In this document: piece by piece, positions 3,028 to 61,386 of the stretch
Numbering within the stretch: the stretch's first letter is position 1
How the letters are laid out: each line of letters begins with the position of its first letter
Sequence record: MW650886.1
Reading direction: 5' to 3' (one strand)
Source: Escherichia phage vB_EcoM-ZQ1
Length of the DNA stretch: 64,000 nt
The notes under the pieces: generated by a model
The model's database searches: none
What the model was told of the DNA's origin: nothing
The model's input: the letters and a program-made list of their open reading frames with translations, nothing else
Made by a program: the position numbers and the translations under genes

Positions 3028-3209
3028 CGAAGGCGAGACCAGGGAATACTCCCACAAGAACTTTCCTCCCCGTGATGTTCATGACCAACAGTTCGTGAAA
3101 TTGTTCTGTCGCTGTGGTGGTTGCGACTTCACAGACGAAGGATACGCGATGCACGTATACTGCTGCAATTGCTGTGGTAAATACGTAACAGTCTATAGGA
3201 GAACCAAAC

Positions 3210-3635
3210 ATGGCGAAGAAACCTGAAGTCAAGAAAGTTGAAATTAAAACCGAAGCCCCAGTCGATGACATCCAGGCGAAGGAGGAAGGTGTGTTGCCTA
3301 CCTACCTACAACGCGCCATCGATAACATCCCTCCAGGGGGAGACGGAGGCGTCGTCTACGCTGGCGGGTACGGTTGGGTGTGCGAATACCAAGACGGCAC
3401 GAAGGAACTCCTCCAGGAGCTTCCAGGGCTGGCTGCGACCCTCAAGCGTTATGGTCGCGACAAGTTCGGCAAGCCGTTTGAAACCGGGGCTGTGATTGAA
3501 ACCAACATCACAGTCGAGACTCTGAACCTGCTGGGTGAAGATGATCTCAAGTTGTTGGCTGCGCCGCTGGGTATCACAGAAGAAGATCGCATTCAGCTGA
3601 TTGCGAAGCTGATCGAAAAATTGCAGATTAAATAA
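3210..3635 (+). CDS. hypothetical protein
   Basis: 141-aa ORF; AGGAGA Shine-Dalgarno about 8 nt upstream of the ATG. Confidence 0.5.
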   Translation: MAKKPEVKKVEIKTEAPVDDIQAKEEGVLPTYLQRAIDNIPPGGDGGVVYAGGYGWVCEYQDGTKELLQELPGLAATLKRYGRDKFGKPFETGAVIETNITVETLNLLGEDDLKLLAAPLGITEEDRIQLIAKLIEKLQIK

Positions 3636-3665: not shown

Positions 3666-4058
3666 ATGCCTATCGTTGACGAAAGCAACTTGATGGATTA
3701 TGCACTGAGGCATTATATTGTAGATTCTGTCTCGTGGGATGAACTGCTGGTAGACATTCAGCGGATTTCGCTAATTAATCAATCATTGAAGAGATTTGTC
3801 CCTGGTAAGAGTCCTCGGTTGATTCTCAATCAATTGATTACTGTCTTCAATACGTTCGAAACAGAGGCTGCTTGTCGCATGCTCGTTTTGAAGGTGGATA
3901 AGCCCCAGTTGCCACGCCTCAAGGCTGCTTTGTTGACATTAGGCGTATGGCGCGATGATTTATGTTCCGGTTCATACGAACCAGATAATGAGCTGATGAT
4001 GGCTCTGAACAACGATTTGGATGAGTGGAGGAAACCATGCCAACGATCACTGTATTAG
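3666..4058 (+). CDS. hypothetical protein
   Basis: 130-aa ORF, co-directional and tightly packed with neighbours. Confidence 0.45.
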   Translation: MPIVDESNLMDYALRHYIVDSVSWDELLVDIQRISLINQSLKRFVPGKSPRLILNQLITVFNTFETEAACRMLVLKVDKPQLPRLKAALLTLGVWRDDLCSGSYEPDNELMMALNNDLDEWRKPCQRSLY

Positions 4059-4846
4059 TAGCACCGGAAGTTGTTCGCAACAAACCGGAAACTGAGCGTC
4101 TTCACACTGTAACAGGTACTGCTCGGGGTTGGGAAAAGACCAGTCTTAACCAAGACCCAGACGAGATCCTGACTGAGTGTAAAGGTCTGGATGCACTGCT
4201 GACCAAGAGCAATTTGCAGGCCGATGGCGTCACCAAAGTGGATCCAACCAAGCCCGTTGGCTTCCAGCTGTCTTATGAAATCCACGACCCAAGCGCTGTG
4301 CTGACCACTGGCCTGACCATCACCCCTGAAACTGCTAATGGTGAAGTCGGTCAGGTTGTTGAACTGAAGGCGGTCGTCGCTCCGGAGAACGCGACCTACC
4401 AGGGTGTCAACTGGTACTCTGGCGATCTGACCAAAGCTGTGCATATCGGTGGTGGTAAATTCAAGCTGCTGGCGCCGGGTTCAGTGACTGTTTACGGTGT
4501 AACCATCGAAGGTGACCACACTGACTCTACCGTCATCACAGTGGCTGGCGCTCTGTCTCTGTCTACCGATCTGGCTGCTTCTCAGGATGTAACAACAGGT
4601 GAATCCGCAACCTTCACCATCGCTGCTACAGGCGGCACTACCCCATACACACATACTTGGTACTTCTCTGATGTCCCTGGTGGTGAAGGTGAGGTGATCG
4701 ATGCTGGCACTAACCCCACTGCTGCAACTGCGAGCCTGGTTATCACCACAGTTGCTGCCGAAAACGAGGGTGAGTACTGGTGTGTTGTTGAAGACGCTGA
4801 CGGCCACTCTGTGACCTCTACTCGTTGCGAAATGGCTGCGGTCTAA
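4037..4846 (+). CDS. Ig-like domain protein (Hoc-like fold candidate)
   Basis: ATG at 4037 preceded by GGAGGA; C-terminal half has Ig-type pattern ...TFTIAATGG...YTHTWYF...EGEYWCVVEDADG... (G-x-Y-x-C motif). Confidence 0.5.
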   Translation: MPTITVLVAPEVVRNKPETERLHTVTGTARGWEKTSLNQDPDEILTECKGLDALLTKSNLQADGVTKVDPTKPVGFQLSYEIHDPSAVLTTGLTITPETANGEVGQVVELKAVVAPENATYQGVNWYSGDLTKAVHIGGGKFKLLAPGSVTVYGVTIEGDHTDSTVITVAGALSLSTDLAASQDVTTGESATFTIAATGGTTPYTHTWYFSDVPGGEGEVIDAGTNPTAATASLVITTVAAENEGEYWCVVEDADGHSVTSTRCEMAAV

Positions 4847-17170: not shown

Positions 17171-17220
17171 AATCTAGTCCTAAATAGCTATAACACTCTA
17201 TCTATTTAAGGGCTGAGACC

Positions 17221-23459: not shown

Positions 23460-24890
23460 TCACCCATTACCCTTCTCCAACAGGAATGCGATGTTTTCAA
23501 TGTACGCTTTCTGTATCGCATAGACTTCATCCAGTGTGTTGGCCACTTTCTTGTCAATGCGGACTTCTACAAGGCGAGGTAGGAACAAAGACTTCATCGC
23601 ATCATCTGTCTTATCCTGTACGCCATTGGAGAGCACTGCGGCGATTTTGCCAATGTAGTCGCCCTGGTTCTCCCACATATGGCGTCTCAGCTCATCTGAG
23701 ATCCCTGATACGCCAACAACAAGCAGGCTGTCGGAAGTTTTACAAATCAGTGAGCCAAAAGTCTTGGCGTGTTTGCCTTTCTTGTCGGCCTCGTTGAATC
23801 CCACGATTTCAAGGTCACACTCAACCTCCATCTTCAGCTTCAGACCTTCAGAAGAAGTACCATCTTCCCACGGCATGTCTGCGGCCTTACATATCGTGCC
23901 TTCTTCTTTGCGAGCCAGCGCGTCTTTGAAGTGGTCGACGGCTTCGGCAAATGAGTGAACAACACGAGTTTCTTGAACCTGAACCAGACCGTCGTCTTCA
24001 TCAAACAGTTGCTGGATGATATCGAAGCGGCGCTCATACGGGGTATCCACGCGTTGGGCGTTGAACCATTGTTCATACGGCACAACATCCCACACCCGGT
24101 AGATCACCCGATAACGATCTTCTAGGGGTTCTCCTGTCTGAATCACGCTGTTGAGTTTACCGTTACCGACAGCACGAGGCAGGATGGTATTCGACTTGAG
24201 GTCAACAACGAGAAGTTCACCATGGAACACACTCTCACCAATCCCCGTATCGTAGATCAGGTCTTTGAACACCAGTGAAAGGTTATCAACAGAACCACCT
24301 GCGATAAGGGAACCGGAGCGAGAGCGAATCTCAGGCTCTTTATTGTACCGACATATGATGTTGGCGAACATACCGTCTGACTTCAGCTGGCTGTAGACGC
24401 CACGCTTGAAGTCCATCTTCTTCAGCAGGTCAATTGTCATGTTGTCATAACGATGATACGGAAGAATGTTGATCAGGCGTCCAGTGCCTCCGGCGGCGTT
24501 GAATGCAGCGTTGATACCCTTCTCAGCGATACCCGCCTTGATATCACGGTCTAGGATCATCTGAATGAGTTCGTGGTATTGGGGATCCATCTTCAGGGCG
24601 ACAGAGGCCAACAGGGCATCAGCCTTTTGGCCACTGACAAGGCGCTGTGCCATCTGGTCGAGGACGTCATAGACTTCGCTGATGTCATCAGTCTTCTCAC
24701 GGACGAGCATGCGAGGGTACGCGCTGAGCTTCAACTCAGTCCGATAGAACGACGTCATTGGGTCATAGACATACTGCAGGAAGTCTGCCAAGTCTGGGTT
24801 GTTCTTGAATGCTTCGGTCAGCACGGCTTTCTTCGCATTGCTGCCTTTGGTTTCGCGAAGTCGGTGGACTGTTTCAAGGATAGGGATCAT
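23460..24890 (-). CDS. ATP-dependent DNA ligase (T4 gp30-like)
   Basis: 476 aa; nucleotidyltransferase motif I LKSDGMF (K-x-D-G); size matches T4 DNA ligase. Confidence 0.8.
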   Translation of the reverse strand: MIPILETVHRLRETKGSNAKKAVLTEAFKNNPDLADFLQYVYDPMTSFYRTELKLSAYPRMLVREKTDDISEVYDVLDQMAQRLVSGQKADALLASVALKMDPQYHELIQMILDRDIKAGIAEKGINAAFNAAGGTGRLINILPYHRYDNMTIDLLKKMDFKRGVYSQLKSDGMFANIICRYNKEPEIRSRSGSLIAGGSVDNLSLVFKDLIYDTGIGESVFHGELLVVDLKSNTILPRAVGNGKLNSVIQTGEPLEDRYRVIYRVWDVVPYEQWFNAQRVDTPYERRFDIIQQLFDEDDGLVQVQETRVVHSFAEAVDHFKDALARKEEGTICKAADMPWEDGTSSEGLKLKMEVECDLEIVGFNEADKKGKHAKTFGSLICKTSDSLLVVGVSGISDELRRHMWENQGDYIGKIAAVLSNGVQDKTDDAMKSLFLPRLVEVRIDKKVANTLDEVYAIQKAYIENIAFLLEKGNG

Positions 24891-44405: not shown

Positions 44406-46016
44406 ATGTTAGACAATATGAGATGGTTTTACGGCACCGTTGAAGATGTCAACGATCCAGACCAAAACGGGCGAGTTGCTGTTCGCATATATGGCGTACA
44501 CACCGACGATCCCGTCCTCCTGCCTACGGACAAACTCCCATGGGCGAAGGTACTGATGCCTGCTTCAAACGCCTCCTCTGCTGGTTTAGGTTGGTCTCCA
44601 ACGGGTATCATTCCTGGTACTGAGGTTATGGGGTTCGCCCTTGACGAAGCATACCAGAATTTACGCATCACCTGGACTTGGACTGGTTCAAGTCCTACTG
44701 ATGGTGCCGACACAAACCCACTGGCTCTCGGGCAGGTCGTTCAATCTGTGGAACGTCAGGCGTACAACGCCGTCACTGACGTTCCTGTGAAACAAGAAGA
44801 CGAACCACAACCAGATCCACAACCACCTGTTGGCGGGTATGATCCAGAGAAGTGGATGACAATCGCTCGTGGCGAATTGGGTATCAAGGAGTACGCTGGA
44901 AAGTTCAACAACAACCCGCGCATTATAGAATATCACAAGACAACCTCCCTTGGTGCTTCTGAAGATGAAGTGTCGTGGTGTGCGGCGTTCGTGGGTTGGG
45001 TTATGATACAGGCTGGATACACGTCTACACGCTCCGCTCTTGCCCGATCTTACCTTACATGGGGCACTCCACTGTCAGCACCACAATATGGCGCTATCGT
45101 AGTCTTCCGGCGTGGTAACAACCCTACATTTGGACACGTAGCGTTTGTGCAGAAGTTCGATGCAAACTATGTCTGGTGTATTGGTGGCAACCAATCCGAT
45201 TCAGTGAAGGTTAGTCGTTTCAGACGTTCTTCGGTCTTGGGATATCGTTGGCCTGGTCCTGCTAACACAGCCACAGCCGTGCCTGCGCAGCAGAATGGTA
45301 AATGGTCAGAACCTATCCCAGATCGTACTCCAAAGGAACAACCGACTCCGGCTCCTACTGGGCGAGTACAGGATATTGACAACACTGGAGAAACCATGGT
45401 TCCGGCTGCGGGTGGCTCCAAATACCCGTACAATAACGTCATGGTGTCCCGAGCTGGGCATATTATGGAAGTGGATGACACCCCTGGTGGTGAACGTCTT
45501 CATTGGATGCATAAGTCTGGGTCTTACAAGCAAATGTTGCCGGATGGTGATGTGGTCAACAAGTCCGTCAAAGACCACTATGACCTGACGATGTTCAACA
45601 AGCGTTATTATGTCGGCGGGGACCACAACCTGACGGTCAAAGGAACTGAAGTTCAGCGCAAGACAGGTGAGGTCTATCATTTGCATTCCAACAACTACTC
45701 AAATGTGGTTGCGGGCACAGCGCTGATGAAATTCAGTGACCTAGCGGAAATGCAAGCGCAGAATATTCTGCGCATTATCTGCGAGACTCTGGAGGTCGGC
45801 GGGACATTGAAGGTTCCTAAGATTCTAACGACTGAGATCATCGCTGACAAACTGACTGTCGCTCAGACGATCAATGGTAACATCATATATGCCGAAGGTG
45901 CTGGTCGCGCTTCTTCTCTGTCAGGTGCAACCCCTGCATCCCCTACGGGTCCGGGTGAGATTGACATCAAGGCAGAATTAAAAGACAATGGTGGTAATTT
46001 CGGCACCAAAGAGTAA
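44406..46016 (+). CDS. baseplate central hub / cell-puncturing protein (gp5-like) with CHAP/NlpC-P60-type peptidase domain
   Basis: N-terminal gp5-type OB segment (WFYGTVEDVNDPDQNGRVAVRIYGVHTDD...LPWAKV); central Cys/His peptidase-like region (SWCAAFVGWVM ... GHVAFV); C-terminal repeat-rich region. Confidence 0.65.
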   Translation: MLDNMRWFYGTVEDVNDPDQNGRVAVRIYGVHTDDPVLLPTDKLPWAKVLMPASNASSAGLGWSPTGIIPGTEVMGFALDEAYQNLRITWTWTGSSPTDGADTNPLALGQVVQSVERQAYNAVTDVPVKQEDEPQPDPQPPVGGYDPEKWMTIARGELGIKEYAGKFNNNPRIIEYHKTTSLGASEDEVSWCAAFVGWVMIQAGYTSTRSALARSYLTWGTPLSAPQYGAIVVFRRGNNPTFGHVAFVQKFDANYVWCIGGNQSDSVKVSRFRRSSVLGYRWPGPANTATAVPAQQNGKWSEPIPDRTPKEQPTPAPTGRVQDIDNTGETMVPAAGGSKYPYNNVMVSRAGHIMEVDDTPGGERLHWMHKSGSYKQMLPDGDVVNKSVKDHYDLTMFNKRYYVGGDHNLTVKGTEVQRKTGEVYHLHSNNYSNVVAGTALMKFSDLAEMQAQNILRIICETLEVGGTLKVPKILTTEIIADKLTVAQTINGNIIYAEGAGRASSLSGATPASPTGPGEIDIKAELKDNGGNFGTKE

Positions 46017-51741: not shown

Positions 51742-51812
51742 GGGAACCTTCCTATATCTCAGGGTGTCATCACCTCTAATTAAGGTGACAACCCCAGCAT
51801 ACCTGAGGATTG

Positions 51813-51843: not shown

Positions 51844-52638
51844 TTAACTGAAACTCTTGTATGCTGCTGCGAGCTTCTTGTCGTACTGGTTCTTGGCATA
51901 CGCCGGACCATTATAGCGCCGTGCAAATTCAGACCAGTTCTTGTCCTTCAGAGCCTTCCAGAGCTTGGCGTCAGCCTTGATGAACTTCACGAATGCCATC
52001 AAATGAGCACGTTCTCCTGTCAGGAAGTCGTTGAACATCTCCTTGGCGTTGGCATATCCACAGACCTGGCAGTTGAATCCCATGATCTGGAAGAGACCGT
52101 AAGAGGCGCTCTCGTACGCACAATCCTCATCGATGTTGATGGCCGCATGAAGTCGATCCAACTCCGCGTCGCCTCCCGTGTACCCGCCTGCGGAAGGACT
52201 GACCAACGTCGGGTACATATGTCCCATGGCATTCGCCCGAGCCTGTCCGAACTTCGCCATCAGCTTCTTATACATGATGTGACGCTCAAATAATGTCTTG
52301 ATCTTACCTGACTTGGTGAAGCCCGTGCCGCGCGACTCAACCTGATTCACCGCCTTGACAGAGGCAAGGTCAACACCCAGATCATTAGCAGCATCAATCA
52401 GGTCTGACTCAGTTAAATGATCCTGATGGGCGTCTCCGGCGTTGCGAATAGCATAGGAGGTCTTTGGACCCACGATACCATCAATGACAAGCCCCGCACC
52501 CGCCTGAACAGTCTTGACGGCGTTCTCTGTTGCCTTACCAAAGATGCCGTCAGCGACGAGGGTGAAGCCGATTTTGTTGAGGCTATCCTGAAGTGCCTTC
52601 ACTTCAGTACCACGGTTGCCAAATTTTAGAATGGCCAT
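51844..52638 (-). CDS. endolysin: N-terminal peptidoglycan-binding repeats plus C-terminal muramidase-like domain
   Basis: ATG at 52638 with GGAGG RBS; two PG_binding_1-like repeats (GTEVKALQDSLNKIGF ... FGKATENAVKTVQ); C-terminal catalytic-like domain (YGLFQIMGFN). Confidence 0.65.
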   Translation of the reverse strand: MAILKFGNRGTEVKALQDSLNKIGFTLVADGIFGKATENAVKTVQAGAGLVIDGIVGPKTSYAIRNAGDAHQDHLTESDLIDAANDLGVDLASVKAVNQVESRGTGFTKSGKIKTLFERHIMYKKLMAKFGQARANAMGHMYPTLVSPSAGGYTGGDAELDRLHAAINIDEDCAYESASYGLFQIMGFNCQVCGYANAKEMFNDFLTGERAHLMAFVKFIKADAKLWKALKDKNWSEFARRYNGPAYAKNQYDKKLAAAYKSFS

Positions 52639-52700
52639 AAGAAAATACCTCCACAATGAATGTAGAGGTATTTAAAGTGAAAGTGAACTGACTTTGAGGA

Positions 52701-55435: not shown

Positions 55436-55787
55436 TTACGACAGCTGCTTCAGTTTGTAGATCGTCTGATAGCACAGCGTCTTGATTTCATCAAGTGTGT
55501 TCTGAAGGTGGGAGTCACACTGCTTGTAGATGCCATCTACGTCTATCACCACACTGTTAATATAGGAGATAGGGTCTGGGTTGTACAATTTGATATTCTC
55601 GAATGATGGAACATACTGGCCACCCGCACCGATGTATGCTTCGGTAAACGTGTCCAGCAAGTCCTCTAGATCCCCGTAGAACTCCCCGAGTGCCTTGTGC
55701 TTGGCATAGGACGTTGTAACGAAGTGTAAGGCATGAGAGTGGGCTATAGCAAGCAGTCCACGGTTGATGAAAATACTCGCATTGACC
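55436..55787 (-). CDS. hypothetical protein (possible four-helix ferritin/Dps-like fold; weak)
   Basis: ATG at 55787 with GAGGA RBS; ORF-track start at 55843 lies inside a terminator hairpin. Confidence 0.4.
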
Positions 55788-55799
55788 ATGATGTTGTCC

Positions 55800-55832
55800 T
55801 CAGAAAAAGAAATCCCCCTGTATTTAAGGGGG
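55800..55832 (-). terminator. rho-independent terminator on the minus strand (atccccc-loop-gggggat then TTCTTTTTCT)
   Basis: read directly, downstream of the stop at 55875. Confidence 0.55.
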
Positions 55833-55874
55833 ATTGTAATCACTGCTTGACAAGAACCATCTTGATGGTTTCAC

Positions 55875-56180
55875 TTAGTCTTTGTCGGCAGACTTGCCAA
55901 AGAAGAATTCGAAACCGTCATGGACAGCAACGACTTCCTGACCTTGGGAGATACCGTGAGTCTGGTCTGGGGTCAGCTTCACCTTGATGGTGTTGCCATC
56001 GGTTAACTCCAGGTTGTAGACATCCGCCTGATTGTCAGGAGTGATCTGGGTCACGGTAGCGCCGGAACACCACTGAGTGCCATCAGCTTGTTTGGTGATG
56101 GATACGGTCTTACCCTGGACACCAGCATGGGTCTGAGGTTTAGCGGCTTGTTCTTTAAAATATTCGATAAACGGTTTCAT
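55875..56180 (-). CDS. late-promoter-driven small protein (virion component candidate)
   Basis: 101 aa; exact TATAAATA about 24 nt upstream, GGAG RBS, own terminator downstream. Confidence 0.45.
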   Translation of the reverse strand: MKPFIEYFKEQAAKPQTHAGVQGKTVSITKQADGTQWCSGATVTQITPDNQADVYNLELTDGNTIKVKLTPDQTHGISQGQEVVAVHDGFEFFFGKSADKD

Positions 56181-56204
56181 CTTAATCTCCTCGGGGATTT
56201 AAGT

Positions 56205-56212
56205 TATTTATA
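56205..56212 (-). promoter_or_regulatory. T4 late-promoter box TATAAATA (minus strand)
   Basis: exact match on the reverse complement, immediately after the upstream terminator hairpin. Confidence 0.5.
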
Positions 56213-56229
56213 AGCCCCCGAAGGGGCTT
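56212..56229 (-). terminator. hairpin terminator after the 1096-aa gene (agcccc-TTCG-ggggct on the minus transcript)
   Basis: stem and UUCG loop read directly 8 nt after the stop at 56237; weak U-tract. Confidence 0.45.
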
Positions 56230-56236
56230 TTGATGA

Positions 56237-59200
56237 TCAGATCTTAATCTGCATGTTGCCACCCAGGGACTGCTCGTACTCGCTGTATGCGCCTTCCCCG
56301 TAGTCTCGTGCCCACTGGTCAGACTGCTGGGCGCTATCCAGAGTCATCAGGTTTGGTTCAGTCGGGTTGTAACCCTTGGACTTCGCATCCCGGTACAGAG
56401 TCTGCAGGTACTGGTTGGCGCGGTCAATCTGAGCTTTGAACTCGCGATATGCCCCTTCAGTTGTGTTGCGGCGGAAGGTGATATCCCAGTCCACGTTCAG
56501 AGTCTGACCATCACGGCTTGCATAGATCTGCCAATCCAGGTCGCGGCCTTTTGGTGCGTTGTCGCGGATGGAGTCGGCGTATGCCGCAAGGTCGTCCTTC
56601 GGATTGTGCGACGTGCTTTTCAGAAGTAGTGCATGACCCATACCACCGTTTGGCTCAAGAGACCATTTTCCTGTTTCTCTTCCCAGGCGTTCTATGTTGT
56701 TGAGTTGGTTTATCGACAATTCAGAAGAGTCAAATAATACCACATCACGTTTTTTGGGGGTTCTCACATAAGGGGTGAGATCAATGTCGATCATCCGGTT
56801 TATAAATTCTACCACTTCAGCTTGTTTCTTTGGCAATGTGGTATTGATATCCGGCTTGTTTGCCACTTTCTCTAGGCGTTTATTTTCTGCGCTTATCATG
56901 GACAGCATAATTTGTGTAACTTTGCCGTCAGACAAGTTGTAATCATTCCAAATCACTTCACCTTTATCCGTGATGGTTATATCGTTCAAGAACACCTGGT
57001 TTGGGTTGTATGACTGACTTTTCAACTGTTGGAGGTTTCTGGAAAGATATACCATTTTTGATGAAATCTCATCAATCACACTCTGGACCATATCTTTGTT
57101 TAAAGGAAGTTCATATGTCTTCGGATTGTTCAGGGTACGCCCTTTCTGAGAGACAATTGGGGTGAATGCAACTTTACCTTTGTCGTAGTAATAGGTCACG
57201 TTGGTTATCATAGAAGTACCGGCGTATTTTCCCGTTTCGGGGAAATTGACATCCCACCGAATGGACATGCCGTTGACAGTCTCACCAAACACCATGGCGT
57301 TGCTTGGTATCTTCAGGGTTCCAGAGTTGACCAGATCAGCGCCTTGGGCATTCAGGTCGATAGAACCATAGATAGCCCCGGTAATACGATCTTTCAACAT
57401 CAGGGTCTTGTCGCCCTTCTCTGGGATGATTTCCAGCGGGTGCTTGCCACGCGGAGGTTCTTTGATGAGTTCCAGTAGAGCAGTTTTCCCTGGTTTCACA
57501 CGATTCAGGACAGCGTCGGACACTGTCAGAGTCCAGTTTGCGGTTTCCACATAACCCCAGCCCCGAGAACGGCGAATGGCTTTGATAGGATATGGAGCGC
57601 TTGTTGGCACTGCGCTAATTTCCCATTTGCCAGTGTACTGGGTCTTGGCAACCTCAAAGATGGACGCAATTACTGCATTGGCGACGTCACGGGCGCTACC
57701 TTTGGCCACGTTCTCCTCTTCAGCAATTTCGCTGAAAACTGAGTATTGAACGAAACCAGCGAGGACGTTTGTGAAGTTGACAACGATAACCAACCCGCCT
57801 GCTGTCGTGTAACGACCAGCGCCCACACGACGGATGTTTTCACCAGGAAGAATAGAAGTGTCCAACCCAACGTTGGTATCAATGATACCCAGAACACGAG
57901 CGATGAAACCACTGTCACGTAATTGATCAACACTGGTTGCACCCTCGGTCGAATCCGATGCGGATTTAGACACTTTGTTCAACTTGATAGAGACAAGGGT
58001 TTCCCCGTTGACACCGATGATATCCCATTCAGTACCCTGCTCGTTCGAGGTGCGGGCAATCTTGCGCTTTGAATTGATGGCACCTTCGTAACGCCCGTTC
58101 TTGACCACAACAGAGGCAGTAGCAGCATCAGTCGCACTTGCTGCATTTGAAAAGTCTGGGTCAGAAATACTGATGTCGACGTCACCGTTTTGAGAACGCA
58201 TGCGAACACCGTTTTTGAATCGTTCAACGTTTACTTCTCGAGCACCAAGTCGTTTGGCATCAATAACAGCAGTTCCAGAACCGATAATGTTGGCTGGGTT
58301 ATTTCTGTCTGAACTGTTTTGAGAACCTTTCCAAAATTTTGTAGACGCCATGGTGAAATCATTCAGGATATTGATAGGGACTTGCGGTAATTTCAACTGA
58401 CGAGCAATGAAATCAGCACTTTGCCCACGCACAGGTTTCTCATTCATGTATGCGCCAACATACACGCCCGGCTCATTGTAGTGGGGAGCGATATTTGCCG
58501 TGTTCGTGCGGCCTCTCTCCTTACCAGCCCATAACAACATGGGCTGATCCCCGTTTGAAGTTAATTTCCATCCGTTGCCATTGCTGGTGTCATTGCTGGT
58601 GTCATTGCTGGTGTCAACGTCCACCACCAGAATTATCTGAGCACCTTTCTTGAAAGTGTACTGATCGTACATACCTTTCTTCTGTTTGGTCATGGACGCA
58701 CCGACCAAGTCTTGGTTGGTGAAGCCGCGCTTCATATTCCAAGATACCTCAGTCCCGTCTGGATATTTGTCAAAATCATAACCATAGAATGTGGCTACTT
58801 CTTTCGAACCGCTTATCAGACGGACGTAATTTCCACGAATCGGGTCTCGCCCGCTCTTCAACTCCAGACCAGTGTCCGAGCTGTTGTACCACTCGCGGTT
58901 GACTTCTATTTCAGAAGAACCAGCCCCAACTCCCACATCCGGAGTATTGTTCTGAACCGGAACGTCACCGACTTTGTCTGGATCATCCCAGGTGATACCC
59001 TGCATCTTCGGACCGTCGAATACCTGAGCCGGATCTTTACCCTTACGAACTAGCCACACATAACCACGGTCAGGAACAGGCGCGTAGGTCAGGTCCATGA
59101 CGTTCAGTTTCTGCTTCAGGCCGGACTGGCGGATGATCTTAGGAATCAGGGTCATACCGCGATCCAGCGCTTTCTTAGAGAAGTTGACAGCAAAGCCATC

Positions 59201-59527
59201 GATGGTCTTACCCAGAGGGGTCGCCATGAATTGTTTGGTCGCTTCGATCATGGAAGCGATAACGCGCATTGGGTTCTTGAAGCGAGCGATGGCGTCAGGA
59301 TAGACGGAGCCGCGCTTCTGGCCGATGAAAACCTGACGAACGCTCTTGCCCAGCCCCTGAGGAGTATAGAACTGAATGCGGTATTCCTTATCATCTTCGT
59401 CGACGAAGGTAAAGAACACATCGCCTGCGTTCTTCTTACCCATGGTCAGCTCATACGGAGCGGAGTTGAACGCTTCGTCTAACTGATCTCTTTCCTGCAT
59501 GAACTGGAGGAAACTTAGCTTTGACAT
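56237..59527 (-). CDS. large hypothetical protein (1096 aa), possibly virion-associated
   Basis: long uninterrupted ORF with AGGAGAT RBS; contains in-frame (TSND)n repeat; no catalytic motif recognised. Confidence 0.6.
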   Translation of the reverse strand: MSKLSFLQFMQERDQLDEAFNSAPYELTMGKKNAGDVFFTFVDEDDKEYRIQFYTPQGLGKSVRQVFIGQKRGSVYPDAIARFKNPMRVIASMIEATKQFMATPLGKTIDGFAVNFSKKALDRGMTLIPKIIRQSGLKQKLNVMDLTYAPVPDRGYVWLVRKGKDPAQVFDGPKMQGITWDDPDKVGDVPVQNNTPDVGVGAGSSEIEVNREWYNSSDTGLELKSGRDPIRGNYVRLISGSKEVATFYGYDFDKYPDGTEVSWNMKRGFTNQDLVGASMTKQKKGMYDQYTFKKGAQIILVVDVDTSNDTSNDTSNGNGWKLTSNGDQPMLLWAGKERGRTNTANIAPHYNEPGVYVGAYMNEKPVRGQSADFIARQLKLPQVPINILNDFTMASTKFWKGSQNSSDRNNPANIIGSGTAVIDAKRLGAREVNVERFKNGVRMRSQNGDVDISISDPDFSNAASATDAATASVVVKNGRYEGAINSKRKIARTSNEQGTEWDIIGVNGETLVSIKLNKVSKSASDSTEGATSVDQLRDSGFIARVLGIIDTNVGLDTSILPGENIRRVGAGRYTTAGGLVIVVNFTNVLAGFVQYSVFSEIAEEENVAKGSARDVANAVIASIFEVAKTQYTGKWEISAVPTSAPYPIKAIRRSRGWGYVETANWTLTVSDAVLNRVKPGKTALLELIKEPPRGKHPLEIIPEKGDKTLMLKDRITGAIYGSIDLNAQGADLVNSGTLKIPSNAMVFGETVNGMSIRWDVNFPETGKYAGTSMITNVTYYYDKGKVAFTPIVSQKGRTLNNPKTYELPLNKDMVQSVIDEISSKMVYLSRNLQQLKSQSYNPNQVFLNDITITDKGEVIWNDYNLSDGKVTQIMLSMISAENKRLEKVANKPDINTTLPKKQAEVVEFINRMIDIDLTPYVRTPKKRDVVLFDSSELSINQLNNIERLGRETGKWSLEPNGGMGHALLLKSTSHNPKDDLAAYADSIRDNAPKGRDLDWQIYASRDGQTLNVDWDITFRRNTTEGAYREFKAQIDRANQYLQTLYRDAKSKGYNPTEPNLMTLDSAQQSDQWARDYGEGAYSEYEQSLGGNMQIKI
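58579..58614. repeat. 12-bp tandem repeat, three perfect copies (cattgctggtgt), in frame inside the 1096-aa ORF, encoding (TSND)3
   Basis: copies at 58579-58590, 58591-58602, 58603-58614 with partial copies flanking. Confidence 0.8.
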
Positions 59528-59602
59528 TTTATATCTCCTGATTGAATTAATGGCGGTTTCTTCTAATTAGCGAAACCAAAAGGGAGCGTCAGCCCCCTTA
59601 TC

Positions 59603-61349: not shown

Positions 61350-61386
61350 GGGTTAAAAGATAAAGGGCACGTGATATTTAGTGCCC
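61350..61386 (-). terminator. rho-independent terminator on the minus strand (gggcac stem then TTTATCTTTTAAC)
   Basis: read directly, downstream of the stop at 61394. Confidence 0.5.

What the first reader, a model, noticed from the sequence alone, without database searches (positions are those of the whole stretch)
56205..56212. Exact T4-type late promoter boxes mark isolated late genes
Exact TATAAATA occurs about 24 nt upstream of the 55875-56180 start (minus strand) and 35 nt upstream of the plus-strand gene 38293-39237, which is embedded in a minus-strand early block and followed by a bidirectional terminator. This implies T4-style gp55-dependent late transcription and marks these two unassigned genes as late, probably virion, proteins.
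Basis: partly seen in the sequence, partly recalled or inferred. Interest (0 to 1): 0.4.

Follow-up and report, generated by a model that had tools for sequence, protein, structure and literature searches.

The report
Known late promoters of an Ackermannviridae phage
The two TATAAATA boxes are real, conserved late-promoter-type signals in an Ag3-like (Agtrevirus) phage, placed before a baseplate gene and a small virion-protein gene, but the same boxes and virion proteins were already described in its close relatives, so the finding is correct and ordinary.

Summary
The window is an Agtrevirus (Ackermannviridae, Ag3-like) genome segment. Exact TATAAATA occurs only twice, at the stated coordinates, 24 nt and 34 nt upstream of the two start codons. 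The 8-mer count alone is not significant (16 of 100 shuffles give at least 2).

The real signal is the hexamer core TAAATA. Eleven of its 17 occurrences lie 24-38 nt upstream of same-strand gene starts, making it the top hexamer of all 4096 (binomial 7e-14). The genes served are baseplate, head-completion, gp2, endolysin, resolvase and virion-protein genes. The family consensus is cTAAATAcccc, so the leading "TA" is incidental.

Both boxes are conserved across genera. The phage family encodes gp55, gp33 (in the window) and gp45 homologues.

Gene 38293-39237 is not unassigned. It is the T4 gp54 homologue, and its LIMEstone1 orthologue is mass-spectrometry-confirmed in virions. The 101-aa ORF is a deletion-truncated allele of a 189-aa protein found in LIMEstone1 and Sajous1 virions.

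Neither gene is isolated: gp2 has its own divergent box, and the 101-aa ORF sits in a cluster of virion genes.

The LIMEstone1 record already annotates the orthologous boxes as putative late promoters, and the Ag3 paper lists the gp54 box. No transcript mapping was found for this family. Interest is low.

The parts
56205..56212 (-). TATAAATA box (core TAAATA 56205-56210), 24 nt upstream of the ATG at 56180. The transcription start inferred from T4 geometry is near A56199.
   Evidence: The box is conserved as TATAAATA in Aglimvirinae and as CTAAATAC in Kuttervirus. The orthologous hexamer is annotated 'putative late promoter' in LIMEstone1.
56214..56227 (-). GC hairpin GCCCC-TTCG-GGGGC, 1 nt upstream of the box and just after the stop codon of the 1096-aa gene.
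   Evidence: Sequence. AGCCCCTTCGGGGGCT is invariant in 8 of 9 phages from five genera (one has G in the loop). It does not pass the terminator scan because the tail is TTATAAAT.
55875..56180 (-). 101-aa ORF: the N-terminal domain of a conserved 189-aa virion protein family (phrog_4048), truncated by a deletion of about 500 bp.
   Evidence: It is 94% identical to residues 1-100 of LIMEstone1 ORF080, a 'confirmed structural protein'. It is 83% identical to Sajous1 gp215, which gave 32 spectra.
38251..38258 (+). TATAAATA box 34 nt upstream of the GTG of the gp54 homologue. The inferred transcription start is near A38264.
   Evidence: The box is invariant in 5 of 6 genera; LIMEstone1 has TATAAGTA. 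The sequence is identical to 'Porf072' in Ag3 Table S2.
38272..38277 (-). Divergent TAAATA box (cTTAAATA) 32 nt upstream of the gp2 start at 38239.
   Evidence: TATTTAA is invariant in 6 of 6 genera. It is annotated 'putative late promoter' in LIMEstone1.
38293..39237 (+). T4 gp54-like baseplate tail-tube initiator (314 aa, GTG start, SD GGAG at 38281-38284).
   Evidence: phrog_3629, E 7.6e-177. The best PDB sequence hit is T4 gp54 (5iv5_W), E 0.012. LIMEstone1 ORF50 gave 7 peptides in virions.
37535..38239 (-). gp2-like DNA end protector, a second late-type gene sharing the 53-bp divergent intergenic region.
   Evidence: phrog_429, E 1.6e-67. Annotations of relatives agree.
39239..39258 (.). 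Hairpin between the convergent gp54 and gp32 genes. It is a terminator by scan criteria on the minus strand only.
   Evidence: Listed as Torf073/Torf074 in Ag3.
40621..40866 (-). gp33 homologue (late-transcription coactivator).
   Evidence: Pfam PF16805, E 1.2e-17. phrog_254. Weak direct match to T4 gp33 (3tbi), E 0.05.
55821..55826 (-). TAAATA box in the loop of terminator hairpin 55811-55835, 31 nt upstream of the DUF5856 (ferritin-like, MobD.6-like) gene 55436-55789.
   Evidence: Annotated as a late promoter upstream of LIMEstone1 ORF078, a confirmed structural protein.
56237..59527 (-). 1096-aa virion protein gene (phrog_3867), preceded by a conserved CTAATTA box at 59564-59569 and terminator 59580-59599.
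   Evidence: It is the homologue of Sajous1 gp214, which gave 196 spectra.
17181..17208 (.). Second divergent pair of TAAATA boxes: 17181-17186 (+) before gp48, and 17203-17208 (-) before the head-completion gene.
44366..44371 (+). TAAATA box 34 nt upstream of the gp5 hub/lysozyme gene (44406-46016).
   Evidence: This is Ag3 'Porf084'.
52669..52674 (-). TAAATA box 30 nt upstream of the endolysin gene. It forms the left arm of a hairpin whose right arm holds the SD.
   Evidence: Annotated as a late promoter in LIMEstone1.
42031..42036 (-). TAAATA box 38 nt upstream of the RuvC-like resolvase gene, inside a strong leader hairpin.
   Evidence: Fold energy -21.2 kcal/mol, z -6.9.
3178..3634 (+). 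Two TAAATA boxes (3178-3183 and 3629-3634) upstream of ORFs 3210-3635 and 3666-4058. These ORFs lead into the Hoc-like or 'tail protein' gene 4037-4846.
   Evidence: For the structural gene context.

Best explanation
The two TATAAATA boxes are ordinary members of the late-promoter class of an Ackermannviridae (Agtrevirus, Ag3-like) phage.

The class is defined by a -10-type hexamer core TAAATA. The family consensus is cTAAATAcccc, there is no -35 element, and the box lies 24-38 nt upstream of start codons.

By analogy with T4, host RNA polymerase core carrying the phage gp55-type late sigma would recognise the box. The gp33 coactivator and the gp45 sliding clamp would assist, and initiation would occur about 6 nt downstream, giving leaders of roughly 18-30 nt.

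One box drives the gp54 baseplate tail-tube initiator and is paired back-to-back with a box for gp2. The other drives a truncated copy of a small virion protein within a run of virion-protein genes. Each gene in that run is preceded by a hairpin plus a box.

Shown here: the motif's position, its enrichment, its conservation, the gene identities and the presence of the factor genes. Shown by others: virion location of the orthologues. Inferred: gp55 dependence, late timing and the transcription start points.
For: Motif placement:
- TAAATA is the top-ranked of 4096 hexamers for lying upstream of gene starts in the window: 11 of 17 occurrences, spacing 24-38 nt (p 7e-14).
- The same holds in the complete genome of relative vB_CECAV_050: 22 of 55 against a 5.1% background (p 9e-15).
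- The genes served are baseplate, head, neck, sheath, tailspike, endolysin and virion proteins.
- A position table of 28 sites shows no -35 element, C before the box and a C-rich stretch after it.

Conservation:
- The gp54 box is identical in 5 of 6 genera, and the opposing gp2 box in 6 of 6, while the spacer between them varies.
- The 56205 box is kept as TATAAATA in Aglimvirinae and as CTAAATA in Kuttervirus.

Factor genes:
- The gp33 homologue is in the window (PF16805, E 1e-17).
- A gp55 homologue lies next to gp46/gp47 in relatives (phrog_234, E 1e-52).
- A gp45-type clamp is present in relatives.
- All three were reported for Ag3 and CBA120.

Prior annotation and proteomics:
- The LIMEstone1 record annotates the orthologous hexamers as putative late promoters.
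- LIMEstone1 ORF50 (gp54), ORF078 and ORF080 are mass-spectrometry-confirmed virion proteins.
- Sajous1 gp214-217 were detected in CsCl-purified virions.

Compatibility with T4 relatives: variation at -13/-12 is documented for T4 itself (A at -13 in 9 of 50 sites) and for Aeh1 (a/gC).
Against: - No transcription start mapping or temporal RNA data for any Ackermannviridae phage was found. The CBA120 paper states that the late recognition sequence was unidentified.
- gp55 and gp45 are outside this window, so their presence in this genome rests on relatives that are 92-99% identical.
- The 8-mer count alone is within chance.
- The 56205 box is not universal. Taipeivirus has CTAATTA and Miltonvirus 3M has TTTATT at that position, while the adjacent hairpin is invariant. 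The AT-rich stretch could therefore partly be a terminator tail.
- The region after the box is C-rich in most family sites, unlike the AT-rich T4 pattern.
- A few TAAATA sites precede replication genes, namely DNA polymerase and a helicase.
- The gp55 homologue is too diverged for phmmer to find T4 gp55 in the PDB.
Confidence: 0.85

Rival explanations
1. The AT-rich stretch at 56205-56212 is mainly the tail of an intrinsic terminator, or of an RNA-stabilising 3' hairpin, for the upstream 1096-aa gene. On this view its match to TATAAATA is incidental, and the 101-aa ORF is expressed by read-through.
For: - The hairpin GCCCC-TTCG-GGGGC lies 1 nt from the box. It is invariant in all nine phages compared, whereas the box region diverges in Taipeivirus and Miltonvirus.
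- In Miltonvirus the tail is T-rich (CTTTATTC) and carries no TAAATA.
Against: - The tail TTATAAAT fails the terminator criterion.
- TAAATA is retained at the same place in Kuttervirus despite a 2-nt deletion and changed flanks.
- Hairpin-plus-box modules recur before neighbouring virion genes.
- The box has the class-typical spacing to the start codon.
- The two roles are not exclusive.
Confidence: 0.1
2. The gp54 box is part of a host sigma-70 promoter (TTGCCA, 16 nt, AATAAT at 38233-38260), so the gene is read early by unmodified host polymerase.
For: The sigma-70 scan gives a 10 of 12 match that overlaps the box.
Against: - The -10 hexamer AATAAT is not conserved. Other genera have AGTAAC, AATATC, AATACC, AATATG or AATATT, while TATAAATA is conserved.
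- The -35 match lies over the gp2 start codon and first codons, so its conservation is explained by coding.
- The scan found 4 such sites in this region against 3.1 expected.
- gp54 is a baseplate structural protein.
Confidence: 0.04
3. The two exact 8-mers are chance occurrences in AT-rich intergenic DNA and have no function.
For: Two matches against 0.66 expected; 16 of 100 shuffles reach 2.
Against: - Both are on the coding strand at class-typical spacing.
- Same-composition hexamers are far less concentrated upstream of genes (33 of 305 against 11 of 17).
- The boxes are conserved across genera where the flanks vary.
Confidence: 0.01

Closest known systems
Phage T4 late promoters (TATAAATA at -13 to -6; gp55 sigma, gp33 coactivator, gp45 sliding clamp)
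   Same: - An AT-rich -10-type box with the same TAAATA core and no -35 element.
- Placement just upstream of structural, lysis and packaging genes on either strand.
- Homologues of all three factors are encoded by the family.
   Different: - Only the last six bases are fixed here. The positions equivalent to -13/-12 favour C or are free, with TA in about 4 of 28 sites.
- The segment after the box is C-rich rather than AT-rich.
- The gp55 and gp33 homologues are highly diverged.
- No biochemical or in vivo test exists for this family.
Annotated 'putative late promoters' of Dickeya phage LIMEstone1 (NC_019925; Adriaenssens et al. 2012, PMC3296691)
   Same: Orthologous hexamers are annotated upstream of ORF049 (gp2), ORF070 (endolysin), ORF078 and ORF080. 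ORF50, ORF078 and ORF080 are confirmed virion proteins.
   Different: - LIMEstone1 has TATAAGTA on the gp54 side and annotates only the gp2-side box there.
- ORF080 is full length (189 aa), whereas the window has a 101-aa truncated allele.
Shigella phage Ag3 putative late promoters (Anany et al. 2011, PMC3121705, Table S2)
   Same: 'Porf072' (tctttgccatttgtcaactcctataaata) is identical to window 38230-38258. 'Porf084' corresponds to the gp5 box at 44366.
   Different: - The paper names the box for orf072 (gp2). As written, the box reads on the strand of orf073 (gp54), and gp2 has its own box on the other strand.
- The box before the 189-aa gene is present in Ag3 but is not in its list.
Family motif CTAAATAcCcc of ViI-like phages, cited for Agtrevirus EspM4VN (PMC7283392)
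   Same: The same core and the same C-rich extension emerge from the 28-site table here.
   Different: The two boxes in the finding are the less typical, T4-like members: TA before the core and an AT-rich stretch after it. I recall the original description as being in the 'Viunalikevirus' proposal (Arch Virol 2012), but I could not read that paper.
T4 gene e (lysozyme) and gene 49 control, where a late promoter sits inside an RBS-sequestering hairpin (from my knowledge of the T4 literature; not read here)
   Same: The endolysin and resolvase leaders in the window have the TAAATA box in the left arm of a strong hairpin. The right arm covers the SD or abuts the start codon.
   Different: - This applies to neighbouring late genes, not clearly to the two boxes of the finding.
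- The resolvase is RuvC-like, not an endonuclease VII homologue.
- The mechanism is untested.

Membership tests
T4-type late promoter | 8-bp TATAAATA box (single deviations tolerated) positioned as a -10 element | tested here: met
   Both boxes match exactly.
T4-type late promoter | No conserved -35 element | tested here: met
   Information content is 0.24 bit or less at every position from -30 to -1 across 28 family sites.
T4-type late promoter | AT-rich segment immediately downstream of the box | tested here: inconclusive
   The two boxes of the finding are followed by AT-rich sequence (ATAACAG; ACTTAAAT). The family as a whole is C-rich at the four positions after the box, and the mean AT fraction is 0.55 over the next 10 nt.
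T4-type late promoter | Located upstream of late (structural, lysis, packaging) genes, on either strand | tested here: met
   11 of 17 TAAATA sites lie 24-38 nt upstream of such genes on both strands. The genome-wide list for a relative agrees.
T4-type late promoter | Genome encodes gp55 late sigma, gp33 coactivator and gp45 clamp | tested here: met
   gp33 is in the window. gp55 (phrog_234, E 1e-52) and a clamp are in close relatives just outside the window's range. This is a caveat, because those two are not seen in this window itself.
T4-type late promoter | Transcription starts about 6 nt downstream, is gp55-dependent, and appears late and coupled to replication | not testable with these tools
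   No RNA data are available, and no such study was found for Ackermannviridae.
Ackermannviridae late motif CTAAATAcCcc | C before TAAATA and a C-rich extension after it | tested here: not met
   Both boxes have A before the core and AT-rich sequence after it. They share only the hexamer core, so they are atypical members of the class.
T4 gp54 baseplate tail-tube initiator (gene 38293-39237) | Sequence homology to gp54 and presence in virions | tested here: met
   phrog_3629, E 7.6e-177, and phrog_45, E 2e-24. The top PDB sequence hit is T4 gp54, E 0.012, with a similar length. LIMEstone1 ORF50 gave 7 peptides.
phrog_4048 virion protein (LIMEstone1 ORF080 / Sajous1 gp215) | Full-length protein of about 189 aa detected in purified virions | tested here: inconclusive
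   The N-terminal 100 aa are 94% and 83% identical to the confirmed proteins. The window copy lacks the C-terminal 89 aa. Whether the truncated product still enters virions is unknown.

The most novel reading that the evidence does not exclude
Late promoters in this family may be systematically built into hairpins that act as temporal gates.

The box sits in one of three places: in the loop of a terminator (55811-55835; 61360-61385), directly after a hairpin (56214-56227; 59580-59599), or in the left arm of an SD-sequestering leader hairpin (endolysin, resolvase).

Early read-through RNA would then terminate or stay untranslated. Late RNA that starts inside the hairpin would escape. This would extend to many genes the mechanism known for a few T4 genes (e, 49, soc).

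It would also involve a gp55 homologue that reads only a hexamer plus a C-rich discriminator.
Probability: 0.35. Interest if true: 0.35.

Novelty: already known. Interest (0 to 1): 0.15.

Why it matters
The result matters little beyond annotation quality. It confirms that this phage uses the T4-type late transcription signal, with a relaxed hexamer core. The family still lacks any experimental promoter map, so the box list given here is a ready set of predictions for a 5'-end mapping or time-course RNA-seq experiment.

Tried and rejected
- **Exact 8-mer statistics.** Not significant on count alone, so I moved to the hexamer core and its placement.
- **Pfam for the gp55 homologue.** No family matched. 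phmmer against the PDB did not find T4 gp55. PHROGs did identify it.
- **Function of the 101-aa product.**
  - Pfam gave only a sub-threshold TOBE hit (E 0.0012, below the cutoff).
  - The large protein database returned only 3 homologues.
  - An AlphaFold model from that shallow alignment (pLDDT 77) is a small beta-barrel with no significant PDB fold match (best E 0.085).
  - No function is claimed.
- **Published 'ferrojan horse' reading of the Sajous1 gp214-217 cluster.** It rests on low-confidence Phyre2 hits, and I did not adopt it.
- **Alternative RNA pairing that would occlude the SD of the 101-aa ORF.** The pairing joins GGGGG of the hairpin with CCCC at 56193-56196. I rejected it because the CCCC is not conserved in Kuttervirus.
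- **Sigma-70 promoter overlapping the gp54 box.** Rejected on lack of conservation.
- **Literature.**
  - The searches for a temporal transcriptome of the family found nothing.
  - One motif search was uninformative.
  - The 'Viunalikevirus' paper could not be read.

Full report
**What the window is.** Megablast of both regions of the finding hits Ackermannviridae phages. The best matches, at 98-99% identity, are Escherichia phages YX22, LHE287, A221 and RPN242, followed by Salmonella phage vB_CECAV_050 and Shigella phage Ag3 (genus Agtrevirus, subfamily Aglimvirinae). Using the annotation of vB_CECAV_050 as a guide, the window runs from rIIA to the gp46-like recombination nuclease. It contains replication and nucleotide-metabolism genes interspersed with small islands of T4-like structural genes: gp48/gp53, gp54, gp2, gp26-like, gp5 and gp25.

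**The observation.**
- Exact TATAAATA occurs only twice on both strands, at 38251-38258 (+) and 56205-56212 (-).
- Reading the sequence, 24 nt separate the minus-strand box from the ATG at 56180. 34 nt separate the plus-strand box from the GTG at 38293.
- The count alone is not remarkable: shuffles average 0.66 and 16 of 100 reach two.
- What is not random is where the boxes sit.

**The real signal is the hexamer TAAATA.**
- It occurs 17 times in the window.
- I built a strand-aware gene list that reproduces the annotation of relatives. With it, 11 of the 17 occurrences lie 24-38 nt upstream of a same-strand start codon. The 12-50 nt zone searched is 2.7% of the sequence.
- TAAATA ranks first among all 4096 hexamers on this measure. 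Fourteen same-composition hexamers give 33 of 305. The binomial p is 7e-14 and Fisher p is 6e-7.
- The genes served are two ORFs leading into the Hoc-like gene, gp48, the head-completion gene, gp54, gp2, gp5, the endolysin, the RuvC-like resolvase, the DUF5856 (ferritin-like) gene and the 101-aa ORF.
- I repeated the test on the complete genome of vB_CECAV_050 with an annotation-free test. TAAATA is again the top hexamer, with 22 of 55 against a 5.1% background (p 9e-15).
- In that genome it precedes the scaffold, sheath, neck, tailspike, gp6 and other virion genes.
- A position table of 28 such sites shows no -35 element, a weak preference for C just before the core, and a C-rich stretch after it. 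This gives cTAAATAcccc.
- CTAAATA is in promoter position in 13 of 18 cases. TA precedes the core in only about four sites per genome, all upstream of genes.
- The exact match to the T4 octamer is therefore incidental. The two boxes are simply the most T4-like members of the class.

**Conservation.**
- In the 53-bp divergent region between gp2 and gp54, the plus-strand TATAAATA is identical in Agtrevirus, Kuttervirus, a Klebsiella phage (its record gives no genus), Nezavisimistyvirus and Miltonvirus. LIMEstone1 has TATAAGTA.
- The opposing TTAAATA for gp2 is identical in all six, while the spacer between the boxes varies.
- Upstream of the 101-aa ORF, the box is TATAAATA throughout Aglimvirinae and CTAAATAC in Kuttervirus. 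It is CTAATTA in Taipeivirus and absent in Miltonvirus 3M.
- The GC hairpin 1 nt upstream is identical in 8 of 9 phages; the Taipeivirus copy differs only at one loop base.

**The machinery.**
- The window encodes a gp33 homologue at 40621-40866 (Pfam PF16805, E 1.2e-17).
- Close relatives carry a gp55-type late sigma immediately beyond gp46/gp47, just past the window's end (phrog_234, E 1e-52). They also carry a sliding clamp.
- The Ag3 and CBA120 papers reported all three homologues.
- The T4 review documents that the first box positions vary. A replaces T at -13 in 9 of 50 T4 sites, and Aeh1 has a/gC at -13/-12. A hexamer-only core is therefore within the known range of T4-related phages.

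**The genes.**
- Gene 38293-39237 is the gp54 baseplate tail-tube initiator. It matches phrog_3629 at E 7.6e-177. Its best PDB sequence hit is T4 gp54 at E 0.012.
- The LIMEstone1 orthologue ORF50 was found in virions with 7 peptides.
- The 101-aa ORF matches only the first 100 positions of the 189-aa family phrog_4048.
- Alignment with Ag3 and vB_CECAV_050 shows a deletion of about 500 bp. It joins codon 100 to the last bases of the next small gene and creates a stop.
- The retained domain is 94% identical to LIMEstone1 ORF080, annotated 'confirmed structural protein'. It is 83% identical to Sajous1 gp215, which gave 32 spectra from CsCl-purified virions.
- The upstream 1096-aa gene corresponds to Sajous1 gp214 (196 spectra). 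The downstream DUF5856 gene corresponds to gp217 and to LIMEstone1 ORF078.
- The 101-aa ORF therefore sits in a cluster of virion-protein genes and is not isolated. Likewise, gp54 is paired with the late-type gene gp2.

**Prior knowledge.**
- The LIMEstone1 RefSeq record already carries 'putative late promoter' features at the orthologous hexamers. These lie upstream of ORF080, ORF078, the endolysin and gp2.
- Ag3 Table S2 lists a sequence identical to window 38230-38258 as 'Porf072'. It is named for gp2, although as written it reads toward gp54.
- The motif CTAAATAcCcc is cited as a family regulatory motif in the EspM4VN paper.
- I found no transcript mapping or temporal expression study for the family. 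The CBA120 paper said the late recognition sequence was unidentified. The functional claim therefore remains a well-supported prediction.

**Rivals.**
- A sigma-70 match overlapping the gp54 box is not conserved.
- The 56205 box could double as a terminator tail for the invariant hairpin. However, it fails the terminator criteria, and the TAAATA core persists in Kuttervirus.
- Pure chance is excluded by placement and conservation.

**Side observations.**
- Several boxes are built into hairpins. Two lie in terminator loops, before the DUF5856 gene and at about 61375.
- Two lie in the left arm of strong leader hairpins whose right arm carries the SD or abuts the AUG. These are the endolysin leader (-17.1 kcal/mol, z -4.6) and the resolvase leader (-21.2 kcal/mol, z -6.9).
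- The endolysin leader is conserved in at least three genera, with one compensatory A-U to G-C change.
- This resembles the T4 gene e and gene 49 arrangement, which I cite from memory.
- A conserved CTAATTA variant precedes the 1096-aa gene. TAATTA also precedes the hub and PhoH genes.

**Verdict.** It is wrong in calling the genes unassigned and isolated, and in stressing the exact octamer. The feature is already described in close relatives. Interest is low.

Noticed in passing
window 52630-52690 (-): In the endolysin leader, the TAAATA box plus the next bases form the left arm of a 13-bp hairpin (-17.1 kcal/mol, z -4.6). The right arm contains the SD GGAGG and is followed by UAUUUUCUU and the AUG. 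A transcript starting about 6 nt after the box would lack the left arm. This looks like the T4 lysozyme (gene e) translational gate. The leader is near-identical in at least three genera, with one compensatory A-U to G-C pair. The LIMEstone1 and Matapan records annotate it as a terminator overlapping the RBS.
   Followed up: partly
window 41985-42045 (-): The RuvC-like resolvase leader has arms GUAAAUAGCCCAUA and UAUGGGCUAUUUAC, forming a -21.2 kcal/mol hairpin (z -6.9) that ends at the AUG. The TAAATA box lies in the left arm. This is reminiscent of T4 gene 49 regulation, although the enzyme is unrelated.
   Followed up: partly
window 55811-55835 (-) and 61360-61385 (-): TAAATA sits in the loop of terminator-like hairpins: CCCCCt-TAAATA-caGGGGG followed by a T-run, and GGGCAC-TAAATAtcac-GTGCCC followed by TTTATCTTTT. 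This suggests overlapping terminator and late-promoter modules.
   Followed up: partly
window 59564-59569, 43053-43058, 51777-51782: The palindromic variant TAATTA lies 36, 28 and 35 nt upstream of the 1096-aa virion protein, the gp26-like hub and PhoH genes. TCGCTAATTA before the 1096-aa gene is invariant from Agtrevirus to Kuttervirus. Taipeivirus has CTAATTA where this phage has TATAAATA. It may be a functional variant of the late box.
   Followed up: partly
window 55790-55880 (-): The 101-aa ORF results from a deletion of about 500 bp relative to Ag3. The deletion removes the C-terminal 89 codons of the 189-aa gene and most of the following 79-aa gene. Five phage records match the 101-aa ORF at 99% or more; A221 matches over all 101 residues, but CECAV_050 keeps the full-length gene, so how many share the deletion was not checked. 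In metagenomic relatives the same N-domain stands alone (103 aa) or is fused directly to the 79-aa-type domain (172 aa).
   Followed up: partly
window 56237-59527 (-): The 1096-aa virion protein has conserved N- and C-terminal parts and a variable middle. The homologue is 795 aa in Sajous1, 1024 aa in vB_CECAV_050 and split into several ORFs in Ag3 and LIMEstone1. Residues 900-954 match an 'internal head protein' PHROG. It is one of the five most abundant proteins in Sajous1 virions, where it is called a tail completion protein. Its function is unresolved.
   Followed up: partly
Ag3 paper Table S2 versus window 38230-38258: The published Ag3 late promoter 'Porf072' is named for gp2. As written, its TATAAATA reads on the gp54 strand, and the sequence includes the reverse complement of the gp2 start codon. 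gp2's own box is the TTAAATA on the other strand.
   Followed up: yes
window, whole: TATAAT is also enriched upstream of early-strand genes (7 of 32 in the upstream zone). Examples occur before the genes that start at 24890, 26547, 29087, 30576, 35324 and 50815, often just after a hairpin. These are likely early sigma-70-type promoters, consistent with the family motif TTCAAT[N14]TATAAT.
   Followed up: no
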